A stretch of 64,000 bases of DNA, from positions 448,001 to 512,000 of the forward strand of contig JBHLNF010000002.1 in assembly GCA_048937405.1 (NCBI GenBank). Reading direction: 5' to 3'. The translations under genes were made by a program, and so were the position numbers. Origin of the DNA: Promethearchaeota archaeon. GTDB lineage: Archaea > Asgardarchaeota > Lokiarchaeia > Sigyniarchaeales > SOKP01. Below the pieces are notes generated by a model. That model ran no database searches. It worked only from the letters and a program-made list of their open reading frames with translations, and was not told the origin of the DNA. This document shows positions 4,764-60,726 of this stretch, piece after piece (within the stretch, counting starts at the first letter, position 1; each line of letters starts with the position of its first letter).

Positions 4764-4817
4764 TATAAGCCAATTAATTCCAATATTATCTAAAAATTAA
4801 TATGATGATTATAAGAG

Positions 4818-4946
4818 GGCTCGGTACGGGAATTGAACCCGTCTTTCCCCAGCAAAAGAATATATCTTAGACTTCTAGGGATTCACATTAGGGTCTCTAT
4901 AAGAAATAGAAACGTCCCCAATACTAACCACTATACAAACCGAGCC
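4818..4946 (-). tRNA. tRNA-His(GTG) with encoded G-1 and two non-canonical introns (4888-4913 at 32/33; 4845-4874 at 45/46)
   Basis: Removing both introns gives a 73-nt cloverleaf: G-1, acceptor GCTCGGT/ACCGAGC, C73, anticodon stem GGGGA/TCCCT, loop CT-GTG-AA, T arm ACGGG-TTCAATT-CCCGT; CCA not encoded. Confidence 0.9.
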
Positions 4947-28640: not shown

Positions 28641-30068
28641 TTATTTTAAAGCTTTTTTAACTATCTTGCTTAATTCATTTGCTAAAGTTTCCTCAATTGG
28701 TTTTATAGAGGGTTTTTCTAATATTTGAATAGAAAGGTTCTTTGCCCTTTTTCTAGCAGATTGAGAACCCTTTTCTTTCCATGTATCTCTTGTCATTCTA
28801 TCTATTATCGAACTTGGAAGAAATAATTCTTTTCTAAAATACTTTAGTGTTGATGGATGAGATAATAATTCTTGCTTTGATTCATAATCATTTAATATTT
28901 CTGAAGCAAATGGGGAACCGTAATTTTCAATTCCTTGTAATAACCTTTTAACCATTCCAACTATTTCATTATCAATAATTAATTTTTCAATACTTTGTGT
29001 AGATTCAAAATCAAGCATTCCAGGACCAGAAACCATATTTATACCTGCTAATCCTGCTAAAAGCGCACCCATTCCTGCTTCAAAACCTGCCTGCGCATCT
29101 GGTATTTTTGAATCACTAAGCGACATATACGCATGTGTAGGAAGTTTTAAGAATTTGCCTATTTCAGTATCACCAATATTAATCATCATTGTTTCTATCG
29201 CACCCATAGGAGTTGTACCGTGTTTCATATCAAAAACTGCTGGAGATCCTCCCCAAATTAATGGTGCACCACGTTTTGCTAATTGAACTATAACTACTCC
29301 AGCAAGACATTCAGCACAGTGTTGAGTTATTGATCCTATTAGTGTTATTGGGGCACTGGCGCCAGCTAAAGGCATAGATACAAATTCGGAAGGAATCATA
29401 CTTTTTGCAGCATCTATTAATGATTGAGTTGTGAGATCCGACCATTTTAAAGGTGGACTGGGACAAGCATCGAATATGGCTAGTGGTTTTTTTGCTAAAT
29501 CATCTTCAGATAATCTACATGTTAGAAGGATTTCTTTCATGATAGAGAAACTTTCTTTCCGAAAGGTTCCTGTTATTACAGGTTTATAACAATGAGATAA
29601 AGCAAGATATAATCTATGCCAGTCCTGAGCCTTTTTTGGAACATCTTGATAAATTAAAGCAGTACTCTGTGCTTCAATATATTCTAATTGATCAACTATT
29701 TTTGAAAACCTAATGAAATCTTTGGATTCCGCTTCTCTAATTTCTCCACTATCCTCATCCAGAATAAAAATTGCAGCAGATCCTGGATCAAAATGAGTAT
29801 TGTCATCTTTTAATGTAATATGGGCATTACCCTCTCGATCGAATAAAGTAATATCATGAGGAACTGTTTCTAAACATTTATCTATTAAATCAGAGGGAAT
29901 GAAATATCGTAATCCTTCATGACTGATACCATTTTGTTCAAATAAATTAATTGCTTCTTGATTTTCAATAAAAACTCCTTGATTTTCAAGAATAAATTTA
30001 GCTTCTTCAAAAATTTGTTCTTTATGTTCAATATCTAAAATTTTTATACTTGGTTTAATAATCGGCAA
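28641..30068 (-). CDS. mttB: MttB-superfamily corrinoid methyltransferase, no pyrrolysine
   Basis: PSPPLKW, MPLAGASAPITL, SDSKIPDAQAG, GPGML; no in-frame TAG, Leu at the approximate Pyl position. Confidence 0.85.
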   Translation of the reverse strand: MPIIKPSIKILDIEHKEQIFEEAKFILENQGVFIENQEAINLFEQNGISHEGLRYFIPSDLIDKCLETVPHDITLFDREGNAHITLKDDNTHFDPGSAAIFILDEDSGEIREAESKDFIRFSKIVDQLEYIEAQSTALIYQDVPKKAQDWHRLYLALSHCYKPVITGTFRKESFSIMKEILLTCRLSEDDLAKKPLAIFDACPSPPLKWSDLTTQSLIDAAKSMIPSEFVSMPLAGASAPITLIGSITQHCAECLAGVVIVQLAKRGAPLIWGGSPAVFDMKHGTTPMGAIETMMINIGDTEIGKFLKLPTHAYMSLSDSKIPDAQAGFEAGMGALLAGLAGINMVSGPGMLDFESTQSIEKLIIDNEIVGMVKRLLQGIENYGSPFASEILNDYESKQELLSHPSTLKYFRKELFLPSSIIDRMTRDTWKEKGSQSARKRAKNLSIQILEKPSIKPIEETLANELSKIVKKALK

Positions 30069-49927: not shown

Positions 49928-51496
49928 ATGAAACTAAAAGTTAAAGAAATTAATTTTGAAACAGGCAATCCTAAAGATATTGTCTTAAACATCAAAGATG
50001 CTAAAGAATTGGGTCAAAAAGCAGGAGAACGGGTCTTTATTAAAAATCTAAAATCAAAATCTTTGGAAGATAAATATTGGGTTGCTATTATTCAAATTGA
50101 TTATTTAGGCACCATTGTTAAATCTGGAGAAATAGGGTTATTTCTTAACCTGTTAAGAGAAAAAAAAGATTTAAAAAATGAAATGCTCGTCTCAGTAAAA
50201 CCAGCAGATCCTCCCGATTCATTTAGATTTATTCAAAAAAAGATCAAAGGGAATAAAATAACTAGCGAAGAAATTAACAGTATTATTAATGACGCAGTCT
50301 CAGGTTCCTTATCGAGGATTGATTTGGCTGCTTTCATAACAGCTGTATCGATTAAAGGAATGGATAATGAGGAAATGACCGCTTTAACCTTATCAGAAAC
50401 AAAAAGTGGAGAAATTTTTTATTTCGGAATGGACGTCTACGATAAACATAGCACAAAAATTTACATTTAGTAAATTTTGTTAAAAGGTGGCGTTCCAGGA
50501 AATAAAGTTTCATTGATAATTGTTCCAATTATTGCTGCAGCGGGATTAACAATTCCAAAATCATCAACAAGAGCTATCACATCCCCTTCAGGTACAGCAG
50601 ATTCAATGGAAGTTTTAGCTCCTGTATCTTTCTCTCCAGATGAGCTAAAAAAAATTGTAGCCGATCAAAATGCGTGTATAATATGGGGTGGTGCTCTTGA
50701 AACTGCACCGGCAGATAATATATTAATAGAAATTGAGCGTCCTTTACATATGGATCCTATTGGTCTTATGATACCTTCTATTTTAACAAAAAAGCTTTCG
50801 TTGGGGGTTAAAAAGCTAGTTCTTGATATTCCTGTTGGAGAGGGAACTAAATTTATTACGACTGATAAAGGAAAGCAATTTGCATACTTATTTAAAGAAA
50901 TCGCAGCAAATGTTGGAATTGAGGCAGAGTGTGCTTTAACTTTAGCTCATCAACCAATAGGTCATGCTGTAGGTCCTGCTCTTGAAGCAAAAGAAGCTCT
51001 TACATTATTACGTGATTATTCTACTGGACCTAATTCCTTAATAGAAAAGTCTACAGACCTAGCAGGGATGCTACTAGAAATGGGTGGGAAAGCTCAAAAG
51101 GGGATGGGACAAACTCTAGCAAAAGATATATTACGGACTGGAAAAGCCTATGAAAAAATGAAAAAAATTATTGAAGCACAAGGGGGAAATCCTGAAATAA
51201 TACCTGAAGATATCGAATTAGGACCCTATGTTAAAGATTTTTATTCTTCAAAAGATGGTTATATTGTTGATGTTAATAACGCACTCATTAATCAAATTGC
51301 AAAAACTGCTGGGTGTCCTAACTCAAAAACTTCAGGAGTAGTAATTATAAAAAAACAGGGAGCAAAAATTAAGGAAGGAGAACTCGTGTTTAAAATATAT
51401 TCCCATAGTGAATCAAAATTAAGAAAAGCAGAAAAGATATATAATGCTACAGGAGGTCCTATTAGGTTAGGTGGAATGGTGATTGAAAGAGTCTAA
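49928..51496 (+). CDS. deoA: AMP phosphorylase (archaeal DeoA-like), interrupted by a putative 30-nt intron (50455-50484); spliced product 512 aa
   Basis: ORFs 49928-50470 and 50477-51496 are in frame; splicing gives DKHSTGGVPGNK; KSSTRAITSPSGTAD, IIWGG, APAD, DIPVGEGTK, GPALEA, AQGG motifs. Confidence 0.88.
50455..50484 (+). other. Putative bulge-helix-bulge-type mRNA intron
   Basis: Central helix UAGC/GUUA, 3-nt bulges AC^A and AA^A, perfect 9-bp intron stem AAAAUUUAC/GUAAAUUUU; contains in-frame TAG TAA. Confidence 0.8.
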
Positions 51497-59388: not shown

Positions 59389-60726
59389 TTATTTTTCAAT
59401 TAATTGTGTTTTTCCCGTCCCCCATACTCCAAGGGCGACACCTAATTCCTTCTTCTCTTTAGCTACGTCTTTTACGTTCTTACCCTCCATAACCGCATCT
59501 ATTGCTTGTCTAAAAGCAATAGCGCCAGCTATAGGCCCATCAGGATGACTATGGATACCACCTCCACTTCCAATAAGGATATCCGTTCCAGCTTCTTTTA
59601 TACATTTCTCAACCATTCCTTGTGTTATTCCACCACTAGGCATTGGGAGTGTTGGTTTAATGTTTTGTAATGAATATCGAAGGGCCTTAAGATTTTGCTC
59701 ATATCTTTCTTCTAATATTTCTGCCTTTCCATATGGGGCAGGGATGACTACTATATCAGCACCACAAATCCGTGGTAATTTTGCAAATGTTAACATACTA
59801 GTCATTCCTGTCCATTCTCCTCCAAAATATGTACCACCAAAATCCATGTGTCCTAGAATTGGAACATTTATTGAAGGATCCTCTGCTATTTGTCTCAGAG
59901 CTTCATAACCAGTAGCTAAATAATTTATCATCAAGGCATTGGCACCTAATTCGATCATCTTATCCGCGTGTTCAAATATATCTGGGAATTTAGAGGTAAT
60001 ATTGATAGTATATAAAGTTTTTTCGCCTTTCTCTGCGTCTGCTTTGTCAACAGCTTCCATAACCTTGACAATTCGCTCTTCAAGTCTATTAAAGGAGGGA
60101 TCTGAGATTAATTCATCATCTTTTACTACATCGCAACCACCGACTGCAGCTTTATAAACTAAATCTGCAGCTACATCTGCTGTATGCCCCGTACACGGTT
60201 TAACCATATTATTCAAAAGTGGACGTGTAGGAATATTCATAAGTTTCCTAATTCCATCAATTCCAAATTTAGGACCTTTAAAATCTTCTAACCAAGCTTT
60301 AGGAAATGCTAAATCAACCAACTTTAAACCGTGAGTTATACTAATATTTCCAATTACTGTTGTGAATAACATTGGAATCCCCATTCCCTTAATATTTATG
60401 ATAGGAAATCCGATTTGAACGAAGTATGTTCTTTCTTTAATATCTTTAGGGATAACATATTCATACATAGGAAGTTCATATACGCCAAGTACTCTAGCAA
60501 CATGGTATTTTCTCACTTCTTCTGTTTCAGCTGGAACTCTAATCCAAGTTCCAGTGGATTGTTCAATTGCAGCAAAACGGGATAAGTAATTAACATTTTG
60601 GCCTTTAGGACGTTTAATAATGTATGAAGCAATTATATATTTTTCTATATCAATTCCATCTAACATAGCTTCTGGAACATCATAATATTGCTCACAAGAG
60701 GGAAATTCTCCTTCCATTTTAATCAC
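59389..60726 (-). CDS. RuBisCO-like protein (form IV)
   Basis: EQSTGTW, GPKFG, KDDE, SGG and GGG present, but VKPCTG (K177 lost) and GHMDF (R295 lost). Confidence 0.85.
   Translation of the reverse strand: MIKMEGEFPSCEQYYDVPEAMLDGIDIEKYIIASYIIKRPKGQNVNYLSRFAAIEQSTGTWIRVPAETEEVRKYHVARVLGVYELPMYEYVIPKDIKERTYFVQIGFPIINIKGMGIPMLFTTVIGNISITHGLKLVDLAFPKAWLEDFKGPKFGIDGIRKLMNIPTRPLLNNMVKPCTGHTADVAADLVYKAAVGGCDVVKDDELISDPSFNRLEERIVKVMEAVDKADAEKGEKTLYTINITSKFPDIFEHADKMIELGANALMINYLATGYEALRQIAEDPSINVPILGHMDFGGTYFGGEWTGMTSMLTFAKLPRICGADIVVIPAPYGKAEILEERYEQNLKALRYSLQNIKPTLPMPSGGITQGMVEKCIKEAGTDILIGSGGGIHSHPDGPIAGAIAFRQAIDAVMEGKNVKDVAKEKKELGVALGVWGTGKTQLIEK

What the first reader, a model, noticed from the sequence alone, without database searches (positions are those of the whole stretch)
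50449..50488. Bulge-helix-bulge intron inside a protein-coding gene (AMP phosphorylase)
Seen: the conserved motif DKHS(T)GGVPGNK is interrupted by exactly 30 nt containing tandem in-frame stops (TAG TAA). The RNA folds as UAGC-[ACA]-AAAAUUUAC-AUUUA-GUAAAUUUU-GUUA-[AAA]-GGU: a 4-bp central helix, two 3-nt bulges and a perfect 9-bp intron stem, with only weak exon-exon pairing (relaxed BHB/BHL). Cutting after the second nucleotide of each bulge, the EndA rule also obeyed by both tRNA-His introns in this window, rejoins AC+A = Thr and gives an intact 512-aa enzyme; both halves are otherwise undegraded. Known: EndA-spliced mRNA introns are established for crenarchaeal cbf5 and very few other genes. 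Inference: Asgard archaea splice mRNAs with the tRNA machinery, here gating a nucleotide-salvage enzyme at an active-site motif. This may be regulatory, is reminiscent of HAC1/XBP1-type non-spliceosomal splicing, and suggests other split genes in these genomes may hide introns.
Basis: partly seen in the sequence, partly recalled or inferred. Interest (0 to 1): 0.92.

Follow-up and report, generated by a model that had tools for sequence, protein, structure and literature searches.

The report
tRNA-type mini-intron in Asgard AMP phosphorylase
The only AMP phosphorylase gene of this Loki-type Asgard archaeon is broken inside its active-site motif by a 30-base hairpin shaped like an archaeal tRNA intron; about 30 related species keep it with compensating mutations, so the mRNA almost certainly has to be cut and rejoined by the tRNA-splicing enzymes, which the papers I could search report for one archaeal coding gene only (cbf5).

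Summary
Observation confirmed. Window 50455-50484 (30 nt, stops TAG TAA) interrupts DKHST|GG of a single-copy AMP phosphorylase gene (49928-51496, +). The RNA has a 4-bp helix (50449-52 with 50479-82), two 3-nt bulges (ACA, AAA) and a 9-bp intron stem. Cutting after the second nucleotide of each bulge gives AC+A = Thr and a 512-aa enzyme.

A 29-31-nt insert sits at the same site in 30 further Asgard species genomes, giving 31 distinct sequences with G000. The central helix is 100% paired and co-varies with synonymous exon sites. Eight of nine stem pairs show compensatory changes. All inserts carry stops and four have lengths not divisible by three. Both halves stay open, with dN/dS about 0.07-0.11. 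Relatives without the insert read DKHSTGG exactly.

The genome has an alpha/beta EndA pair and RtcB. The same cut rule turns a two-intron gene in this window into tRNA-His. It also restores two more split genes in this genome (methylmalonyl-CoA mutase and an AIR-synthase-like gene).

Missing: RNA evidence. No RNA run holds the gene. The regulatory and HAC1-like ideas are unsupported.

This scan has already reported the same intron, and similar ones, on other Asgard DNA and elsewhere in this genome. I found no paper describing it. It is a new member of a known kind (cbf5-type pre-mRNA intron). Confidence 0.87.

The parts
49928..50454 (+). Exon 1 of AMP phosphorylase (175 codons plus the first two bases, AC, of the junction Thr codon)
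   Evidence: ORF. Pfam Glycos_trans_3N. TIGR03327 profile positions 1-165.
50449..50452 (+). Exon strand (TAGC) of the 4-bp central helix H
   Evidence: Pairs with 50479-50482. Paired in 31 of 31 sequences, with U-A to C-G switches at the synonymous His-codon site in 9. The Ser codon is AGY in 31 of 31 intron-bearing genes against 13 of 22 intron-less genes.
50453..50455 (+). 5' bulge ACA; predicted cut between 50454 and 50455
   Evidence: A and C are invariant; the third base is A in at least 90% of sequences.
50455..50484 (+). Predicted 30-nt intron (holds in-frame TAG 50468-70 and TAA 50471-73)
   Evidence: Excision reproduces the DKHSTGG reading of intron-less orthologues.
50456..50478 (+). 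Intron hairpin h': 9-bp stem (50456-64 with 50470-78) and 5-nt loop (50465-69)
   Evidence: 97% of cells paired. Eight of 9 pairs have changes on both sides among 31 sequences.
50479..50482 (+). Intron strand (GTTA) of central helix H
50483..50485 (+). 3' bulge AAA; predicted cut between 50484 and 50485
   Evidence: The first base is invariant A. The third base varies (A/T/G/C) and always completes ACN = Thr.
50485..51496 (+). Exon 2 of AMP phosphorylase (last base of the Thr codon, 336 codons and the stop)
   Evidence: Pfam Glycos_transf_3 and PYNP_C. TIGR03327 positions 167-500. 4GA4/4GA5, the T. kodakarensis enzyme, at E 4.5e-102.
4817..4946 (-). tRNA-His(GTG) gene with two introns (4888-4913, 26 nt; 4845-4874, 30 nt). 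It serves as an in-window positive control for the same motif and cut rule.
   Evidence: After removing both introns by the rule, ARAGORN calls tRNA-His and the RNA folds as a cloverleaf.

Best explanation
The insert at window 50455-50484 is a tRNA-type (bulge-helix-bulge, relaxed HBh' form) mini-intron in the pre-mRNA of the genome's only AMP phosphorylase gene. In the transcript, the last bases of exon 1 pair with the 3' end of the intron to form the 4-bp helix. This helix is flanked by two 3-nt bulges and closed on the intron side by a 9-bp hairpin. The heteromeric (alpha-beta) splicing endonuclease EndA cuts after the second base of each bulge, and RtcB joins the exons. The result is the codon AC+A (Thr), the motif DKHSTGGVPGNK and a 512-aa enzyme; the 30-nt intron is released, probably as a circle. 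Shown here: the geometry, its conservation with compensatory changes, selection on both exons, precise presence or absence among relatives, and the enzymes' genes. Inferred: that cutting and ligation actually happen on this mRNA.
For: (1) The geometry is exactly as required.
(2) Thirty GTDB species genomes, all Asgard (Promethearchaeota and Promethearchaeia labels), carry a 29-31-nt insert at the identical site, as do 7 of about 24 genomes of the same genus.
(3) Covariation: helix H is 100% paired, including U-A to C-G switches between a synonymous exon site and the intron. The stem is 97% paired, and 8 of 9 pairs change on both sides. No shuffle of 500 reaches the observed values, and slid controls pair at 34-49%.
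(4) All 29 distinct inserts hold in-frame stops. Four are 29 or 31 nt long, yet both halves stay open.
(5) dN/dS among intron-bearing pairs is 0.108 for exon 1 and 0.073 for exon 2, against 0.077 for intron-less pairs, with dS saturated.
(6) All 22 intron-less orthologues read DKHSTGG with no residue of the insert. On the gene tree they are nested among intron-bearing ones (at least 10 changes, at least 6 forced), which suggests repeated precise loss.
(7) The gene is single-copy. TIGR03327 positions 1-165 and 167-500 fall on the two exons.
(8) The genome has a catalytic EndA alpha (best PDB match is the A. pernix alpha subunit 3P1Z_B; Tyr, His and Lys kept), a His-less beta-like paralogue, and RtcB. 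PMC5829648 reports (alpha-beta)2 EndA with the L1 loop, the broad-specificity type, in Asgard archaea.
(9) The same motif and cut rule yield tRNA-His from a two-intron gene in this window.
(10) The same rule restores two other genes of this genome to the sequence of intron-less relatives: methylmalonyl-CoA mutase and an AIR-synthase-like gene.
(11) The insert is present in DNA contigs of two independent studies.
Against: There is no RNA-level evidence for this gene. The helix h next to the 3' bulge is essentially missing (an invariant A.G mismatch, then one or two pairs). A more distal exon-exon helix is paired as often in intron-less genes (75%) as in intron-bearing ones (81%), so it is a by-product of coding. 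The substrate therefore depends on a broad-specificity EndA whose activity is untested in this lineage. Minimum-free-energy folds recover helix H in only 17 of 31 sequences and the full motif in 6 of 31, because the helices are short and AU-rich and A-runs allow register slips. The sequences compared are related, so shuffle statistics overstate independence.
Confidence: 0.87

Rival explanations
1. Split enzyme. The insert is a short intergenic spacer and the two halves are made as separate polypeptides (about 180 aa and about 339 aa) that assemble into an active phosphorylase.
For: The break lies near the boundary between the helical-bundle and alpha/beta Pfam domains. In G000 and 18 other distinct inserts, a TTG lies in the exon-2 frame inside the insert. 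Public annotations list many 338-341-aa proteins of this kind.
Against: Ten of 29 distinct inserts leave no ATG, GTG or TTG in the exon-2 frame after the last stop. Where a TTG exists, it is part of the stem/helix junction. The break cuts through the conserved DKHSTGG loop. This model does not explain a spacer of fixed 29-31 nt, the 4-bp helix that co-varies with exon codons, or the 3-nt bulges. It also does not explain the precise absence in relatives.
Confidence: 0.04
2. Translational bypass. Ribosomes hop over the 30-nt hairpin, as in phage T4 gene 60 or the 'byp' elements of yeast mitochondria, giving the same protein without splicing.
For: The insert is a short hairpin with a stop soon after the take-off site, and a hop would give the same protein product.
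Against: Bypassing needs matching take-off and landing codons. Here the take-off codon is ACA or ACT, and the codon before GGN is AAA, ATT, AAG, AAC, ACT, AAT or ACA, with no co-variation. The conserved features are those of a BHB motif (exon-intron 4-bp helix, 3-nt bulges). The same architecture occurs in a tRNA gene, where translation plays no part.
Confidence: 0.03
3. Cleavage without rejoining. EndA cuts the motif but the exons are not ligated, or only rarely, so the element mainly destroys or down-regulates the message.
For: The motif and the endonuclease are present. No RNA data show ligation.
Against: Both exons are under purifying selection as strong as in intron-less genes across saturated synonymous divergence, and the gene is single-copy. 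RtcB is present. A gene that never yielded protein would decay.
Confidence: 0.03
4. Dead or dying gene. A small hairpin element inserted and inactivated the gene (a pseudogene), or the insert is an assembly error.
For: In-frame stops sit in a conserved motif.
Against: The insert is kept in about 30 species with both halves open and dN/dS of 0.07-0.11. There is no other copy of the element in the genome. Contigs of two independent studies span it without gaps.
Confidence: 0.01

Closest known systems
BHB intron in the cbf5 (pseudouridine synthase) pre-mRNA of Crenarchaeota (Watanabe 2002; Yoshinari 2006; Yokobori 2009, PMC2738675)
   Same: Both are introns inside a protein-coding sequence with a bulge-helix-bulge motif at the exon-intron boundaries. 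Both are removed by the tRNA-splicing endonuclease of the hetero-oligomeric, broad-specificity type. Both show a patchy pattern of gain and loss among related species.
   Different: The gene differs (AMP phosphorylase, a nucleotide-salvage enzyme) and so does the phylum (Asgard, Promethearchaeota). This intron is a very small, uniform hairpin of 29-31 nt. It is one of several such introns in the same genome: I verified two more. Splicing is not shown experimentally here.
Non-canonical (HBh') tRNA introns of Asgard and Thermoproteota, cut by (alpha-beta)2 EndA with the L1 loop (PMC5829648; bioRxiv 10.64898/2026.10.13.758758)
   Same: Same motif, same cut rule and same size class. The tRNA-His gene in this window carries 26- and 30-nt introns of the same build. 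The same enzymes are encoded in the genome.
   Different: The host RNA is an mRNA, so the exon half of the motif is made of codons rather than tRNA stems. There is no mature-domain tRNA structure to help recognition.
BHB intron in the 5' UTR of a Haloferax volcanii mRNA
   Same: An mRNA substrate of the archaeal splicing endonuclease.
   Different: That element lies outside the coding sequence. Here the reading frame itself depends on excision.
HAC1/XBP1 unconventional mRNA splicing in eukaryotes
   Same: Non-spliceosomal, protein-catalysed cut-and-ligate splicing of an mRNA. In animals the ligase is RtcB (my own knowledge).
   Different: The endonuclease is Ire1 and it recognises twin stem-loops, not a BHB. 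That splicing is stress-regulated. No Ire1 RNase domain was found in G000, though the search had no positive control. There is no evidence of regulation here.

Membership tests
Archaeal bulge-helix-bulge (tRNA-type) intron | [quoted passage not shown] | tested here: met
   Helix H is 50449-52 with 50479-82; bulges are 50453-55 and 50483-85. H is paired in 31 of 31 sequences and the spacing is invariant.
Archaeal bulge-helix-bulge (tRNA-type) intron | Flanking helices h (exon side) and h' (intron side); relaxed forms lack one | tested here: inconclusive
   h' is met: 9 bp, 97% paired, 8 of 9 pairs compensatory. h next to the 3' bulge is nearly absent, and the distal exon helix is no better paired than in intron-less genes. 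This is therefore the relaxed HBh' form, which PMC5829648 says only (alpha-beta)2 and epsilon2 EndA cut.
Archaeal bulge-helix-bulge (tRNA-type) intron | Cutting at the symmetric bulge positions restores a functional RNA | tested here: met
   It restores the frame, the Thr codon and DKHSTGG, identical to 22 intron-less orthologues. It also works for the 29- and 31-nt versions.
Archaeal bulge-helix-bulge (tRNA-type) intron | Suitable endonuclease and ligase encoded | tested here: met
   Two PF01974 genes: a catalytic alpha and a beta-like paralogue lacking the catalytic His. One RtcB.
Archaeal bulge-helix-bulge (tRNA-type) intron | Excision and exon ligation observed in RNA | not testable with these tools
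   No RNA run was available for this gene; see Tried and rejected.
AMP phosphorylase (TIGR03327; T. kodakarensis DeoA type) | Full-length match to the equivalog model, including the N-terminal extension, helical bundle, alpha/beta and C-terminal domains | tested here: met
   Exon 1 covers profile 1-165 (108 bits) and exon 2 covers 167-500 (448 bits). The rough sum of 556 exceeds the 535 cut-off, though each half alone is below it. The best solved relatives are 4GA4/4GA5. Enzyme activity was not tested.
Programmed translational bypass (T4 gene 60, mitochondrial byp elements) | Matching take-off and landing codons flanking the gap | tested here: not met
   The take-off codon is ACA or ACT. The last codon of the gap is AAA, ATT, AAG, AAC, ACT, AAT or ACA, with no co-variation.
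Repeated mobile hairpin element (MITE-like) | Multiple similar copies in the genome | tested here: not met
   blastn-short of the 40-nt region finds only itself in 4.47 Mb.

The most novel reading that the evidence does not exclude
In Loki-type Asgard archaea, cutting and rejoining of messenger RNAs by the tRNA-splicing enzymes is a routine, obligatory step for many ordinary genes. These genomes would hold a population of about 30-nt micro-introns that sit in conserved motifs of housekeeping genes, are inherited for long periods and are repeatedly and precisely lost. That would be an intron-bearing protein-gene repertoire in the closest archaeal relatives of eukaryotes. I verified three genes in this genome; unchecked notes of this scan name about ten more. 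A further, much less likely layer (about 0.1) is that splicing is regulated and gates enzyme production.
Probability: 0.6. Interest if true: 0.9.

Novelty: new member of a known kind. Interest (0 to 1): 0.78.

Why it matters
In the papers I could search, endonuclease-dependent splicing inside an archaeal coding sequence rests on one gene (cbf5) in Crenarchaeota. Here an unrelated metabolic gene in Asgard archaea shows the same kind of intron, backed by strong comparative evidence, and at least two more genes in the same genome do too. If RNA work confirms it, three things follow.

- Asgard gene expression would include mRNA splicing by a protein-only machinery whose subunits are homologous to eukaryotic TSEN and RtcB.
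- Gene callers systematically mis-annotate such genes as truncated or hypothetical proteins. About half of the best 120 database relatives of exon 2 are 338-341-aa fragments.
- Metabolic reconstructions of these organisms would under-count intact enzymes.

It would also give a tractable system for studying intron gain and precise loss in prokaryotes.

Tried and rejected
- RNA evidence: no RNA holder was listed for the gene. Only DNA metagenome runs hold it, so read laying could only show that the insert is in DNA.
- An exact 44-nt spliced-junction pattern of the G000 allele had 0 hits in metagenome contigs.
- The protein database holds no full-length form at least 97% identical to G000 that could have come from a cDNA.
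- ARAGORN and Rfam find no tRNA in the window. ARAGORN with introns enabled finds only 21 mostly dubious tRNAs genome-wide, so it could not serve as a systematic control. I verified tRNA-His by hand and by script instead.
- A loose genome-wide scan for hairpin BHB motifs whose excision joins two ORFs gave 117 hits against 107 expected by chance. There is no bulk excess, and only the best-structured hits were informative.
- False positives from that scan: U32 peptidase|PCMT and TnpB|PEMT are adjacent genes. C28:250367 is also discarded, because its second ORF starts with Met. A TnpB-like candidate at C25:212404-212435 is unresolved.
- The distal exon-exon helix as a selected part of the motif is rejected, because it is equally paired in intron-less genes.
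- Stop-codon read-through via pyrrolysine is rejected. The inserts also hold TAA or TGA, and some have non-triplet lengths. The PYLIS hit in the window lies in an ORF without an in-frame TAG.
- The Ire1 RNase domain search found nothing, but it had no positive control.

Full report
WHAT IS THERE. The window is G000:C28:448001-512000, from a 4.47-Mb genome with 28.9% G+C. Two same-frame ORFs, 49928-50470 and 50477-51496 (+), are the two parts of one gene. The first carries the helical-bundle domain of the glycosyl transferase 3 family. The second carries the alpha/beta and C-terminal domains. Against NCBIfam, exon 1 covers positions 1-165 and exon 2 positions 167-500 of the 500-position AMP phosphorylase equivalog TIGR03327. 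The closest solved structures are 4GA4/4GA5, the Thermococcus kodakarensis enzyme.

Between the two parts lie 30 nt that contain TAG TAA in frame.
- exon bases 50449-52 pair with intron bases 50479-82 (4 bp, one G-U);
- 50453-55 (ACA) and 50483-85 (AAA) are 3-nt bulges;
- 50456-64 and 50470-78 form a perfect 9-bp stem around a 5-nt loop.
Cutting after the second base of each bulge removes 50455-50484 and joins AC to A. This gives Thr, the motif DKHSTGGVPGNK and a protein of 512 aa.

IS IT REAL DNA? Contigs from two independent metagenome studies span the insert without gaps, and insert-less relatives occur in the same samples. It is not an assembly artefact.

COMPARATIVE EVIDENCE. Among 40 relatives, 7 of about 24 genomes of the same genus (G000 included) have a 30-nt insert at exactly this site. 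The others read DKHSTGG without any remnant. A pattern scan of 185,579 species genomes found 30 genomes with a 29-31-nt insert at this site. All 30 are Asgard archaea carrying Promethearchaeota or Promethearchaeia labels.

In an alignment of 31 distinct sequences (A1), I counted pairs for the proposed structure:
- The central helix is paired in 100% of cells. It switches from U-A to C-G in nine sequences, between the synonymous third base of the His codon and the intron.
- The intron stem is paired in 97% of cells, and 8 of its 9 pairs change on both sides.
- Overall 90.7% of cells are paired, against 34-49% when partners are slid by 1-3 columns.
- None of 500 shuffles reaches the observed value on any of five measures. 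This includes the two measures that the tool's own trials show to be robust to relatedness.

The exon is visibly constrained by the intron. The Ser codon inside the helix is AGY in 31 of 31 intron-bearing genes, but in only 13 of 22 intron-less ones, where the rest use TCN (Fisher 1e-4, not corrected for phylogeny).

THE GENE IS ALIVE AND NEEDS EXCISION. All 29 distinct inserts contain in-frame stops. Four are 29 or 31 nt long, so the two halves are then in different frames. Ten leave no possible start codon for the second half. Even so, every intron-bearing gene keeps about 175 and 336 open codons. dN/dS among intron-bearing pairs is 0.108 for exon 1 and 0.073 for exon 2, the same as among intron-less pairs (0.077), and synonymous divergence is saturated. 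The gene is single-copy in G000. Two RuBisCO-large-subunit-like genes are present, one of them about 8 kb away in this window. This is consistent with the archaeal AMP pathway, an assignment I make from general knowledge.

HISTORY. On a maximum-likelihood tree of 51 distinct proteins, the sampled sister families lack the intron. It is present on the basal branches of the ingroup, and intron-less genes are nested among intron-bearing ones. The tree needs at least 10 changes, at least 6 of them forced by well-supported branches. The simplest reading is one old gain followed by repeated precise losses. The caveat is that the 30 pattern-derived loci were selected for having the insert. The intron is not a repeated element: nothing else in the genome resembles it.

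MACHINERY. G000 encodes two EndA paralogues and one RtcB.
- The first EndA paralogue (197 aa) aligns end to end with the catalytic alpha subunit of the Aeropyrum pernix heterotetramer (3P1Z_B, E 2e-33). It keeps the Tyr, His and Lys catalytic positions.
- The second (200 aa) has Ser in place of the catalytic His, so it looks like a structural beta subunit.
PMC5829648 states that only (alpha-beta)2 and epsilon2 endonucleases cut relaxed motifs, and that Asgard archaea have the (alpha-beta)2 type with the L1 loop. This matters because the exon-exon helix next to the 3' bulge is practically missing here. A more distal exon helix is no better paired in intron-bearing genes (81%) than in intron-less genes (75%), so it is a by-product of coding. 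The motif is therefore of the relaxed HBh' kind.

POSITIVE CONTROLS FOR THE CUT RULE.
- tRNA-His. Standard tools see no tRNA in the window, but a gene at 4817-4946 (-) carries two inserts of the same build. Removing 4888-4913 and 4845-4874 by the same rule gives a 74-nt RNA that ARAGORN calls tRNA-His(GTG) and that folds as a cloverleaf.
- Methylmalonyl-CoA mutase. My genome-wide scan picked up a 31-nt insert at C15:3033-3063. Its exons match Pfam profile positions 2-54 and 58-512. Only G000, G005 and G024 carry it, while 18 relatives read GGA ACT CCT. Excision by the rule gives GGA ACG CCC.
- AIR-synthase-like gene. The scan also found a 29-nt insert at C7:314151-314179(-). Only G000 and G024 carry it, and relatives have a continuous ORF of about 465 aa. 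Excision gives GTA ACG AGA against GTA ACT CGA in relatives.
The loose version of the scan shows no bulk excess over chance (117 hits against 107 expected). Such introns are therefore rare per genome, and they need homology to be recognised.

RIVALS. Four alternatives were weighed.
- A two-piece enzyme is contradicted by the missing start codons, the cut through the conserved loop and the unexplained BHB constraints.
- Ribosomal bypass would give the same protein, but it lacks matching take-off and landing codons, and it cannot explain the same architecture in a tRNA.
- Cleavage without ligation is contradicted by purifying selection on a single-copy gene.
- A pseudogene or an artefact is excluded.
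Read-through by pyrrolysine is also excluded. TAA and TGA stops and non-triplet lengths argue against it, and the window's PYLIS hit lies in an ORF without an in-frame TAG.

WHAT IS NOT SHOWN. No RNA data exist for this gene, so splicing itself is inferred. Nothing supports a regulatory or 'gating' role, or a relation to HAC1/XBP1 splicing. The position in an active-site motif is more simply explained by the fact that half of the BHB is exon sequence, so introns persist where exons are conserved. The Asgard tRNA-intron preprint 10.64898/2026.10.13.758758 makes the same point for tRNAs.

KNOWN OR NEW. Four full-text searches found cbf5 of Crenarchaeota as the only documented intron inside an archaeal coding sequence (PMC2738675; references 22-24 of PMC5829648). 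They also found a Haloferax mRNA substrate (PMC7714728) and papers on abundant Asgard tRNA introns (PMC11291895; the 2026 preprint). None mentions introns in Asgard protein genes or in AMP phosphorylase.

Within this scan, however, the same AMP phosphorylase intron has already been reported on several other Asgard genomes. Other BHB mRNA introns have been noted in this very genome (uppS, mevalonate kinase, the acyl-CoA mutase, rnhB, elp3, pfk and others). One follow-up on a cold-shock gene reports environmental RNA reads spliced at the predicted sites. Those are unchecked AI notes. I independently re-found only the mutase intron and the multi-species distribution of the AMP phosphorylase intron.

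VERDICT. This is a genuine, conserved tRNA-type mini-intron in an Asgard protein-coding gene. It is a new member of the cbf5 kind, and very probably spliced (0.87). RNA proof is outstanding.

Noticed in passing
G000:C15:3033-3063 (+) = L067:466-496: A 31-nt BHB-type insert splits the methylmalonyl-CoA mutase large subunit at ...FSGHG|T|PEETN. It is present only in G000, G005 and G024 of the genomes sampled; 18 relatives are continuous. Excision by the cut rule reproduces their Gly-Thr-Pro reading.
   Followed up: yes
G000:C7:314151-314179 (-) = L065:1106-1134: A 29-nt insert with a G+C-rich 9-bp stem splits an AIR-synthase-family gene (ThiL/HypE/SelD-like) at GFHV|T|RAALRDL. Only G000 and G024 carry it (30 nt in G024); relatives have a continuous ORF of about 465 aa. 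All three verified mRNA introns sit in a Thr codon (AC|N), and two share the 3' end ...GTAT|CG.
   Followed up: yes
window 4817-4946 (-): A tRNA-His(GTG) gene with two introns: 26 nt at 32/33 in the anticodon loop, and 30 nt between the anticodon stem and the T arm. Default ARAGORN and Rfam do not see it, and ARAGORN -i mis-calls it as tRNA-Ser. The two introns pair with opposite strands of the anticodon stem (GGGG with CCCT, and CCCT with GGGG).
   Followed up: yes
window 29021-29120 (-), inside ORF 28641-30068 (-): An Rfam PYLIS_3 (mttB pyrrolysine insertion element) match at 51.6 bits. The 475-aa ORF is open under the standard code, and the model's UAG aligns to CUU. This looks like a non-pyrrolysine MttB-family gene matched through coding homology, not a Pyl site.
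   Followed up: partly
window about 59422-60264 (-) and G000:C28:205471-206349 (+): Two RuBisCO-large-subunit-like genes (PF00016: 163 and 304 bits). One lies about 8 kb from the AMP phosphorylase gene, a possible partner in the archaeal AMP pathway. Form III versus RuBisCO-like protein was not resolved.
   Followed up: no
G000:C25:212404-212435 (-) = L068: A 32-nt hairpin whose excision would join a 91-aa ORF to a TnpB-like ORF (OrfB_IS605 plus TNB domains). It is unclear whether this is an intron, a broken transposon gene or chance.
   Followed up: no
protein database hits to window:50486-51493: About half of the 120 best relatives are 338-341-aa fragments that start at the TTG inside the insert. 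They are annotated as 'hypothetical protein', 'thymidine phosphorylase' or 'AMP phosphorylase'. Public annotation therefore systematically truncates this gene.
   Followed up: partly
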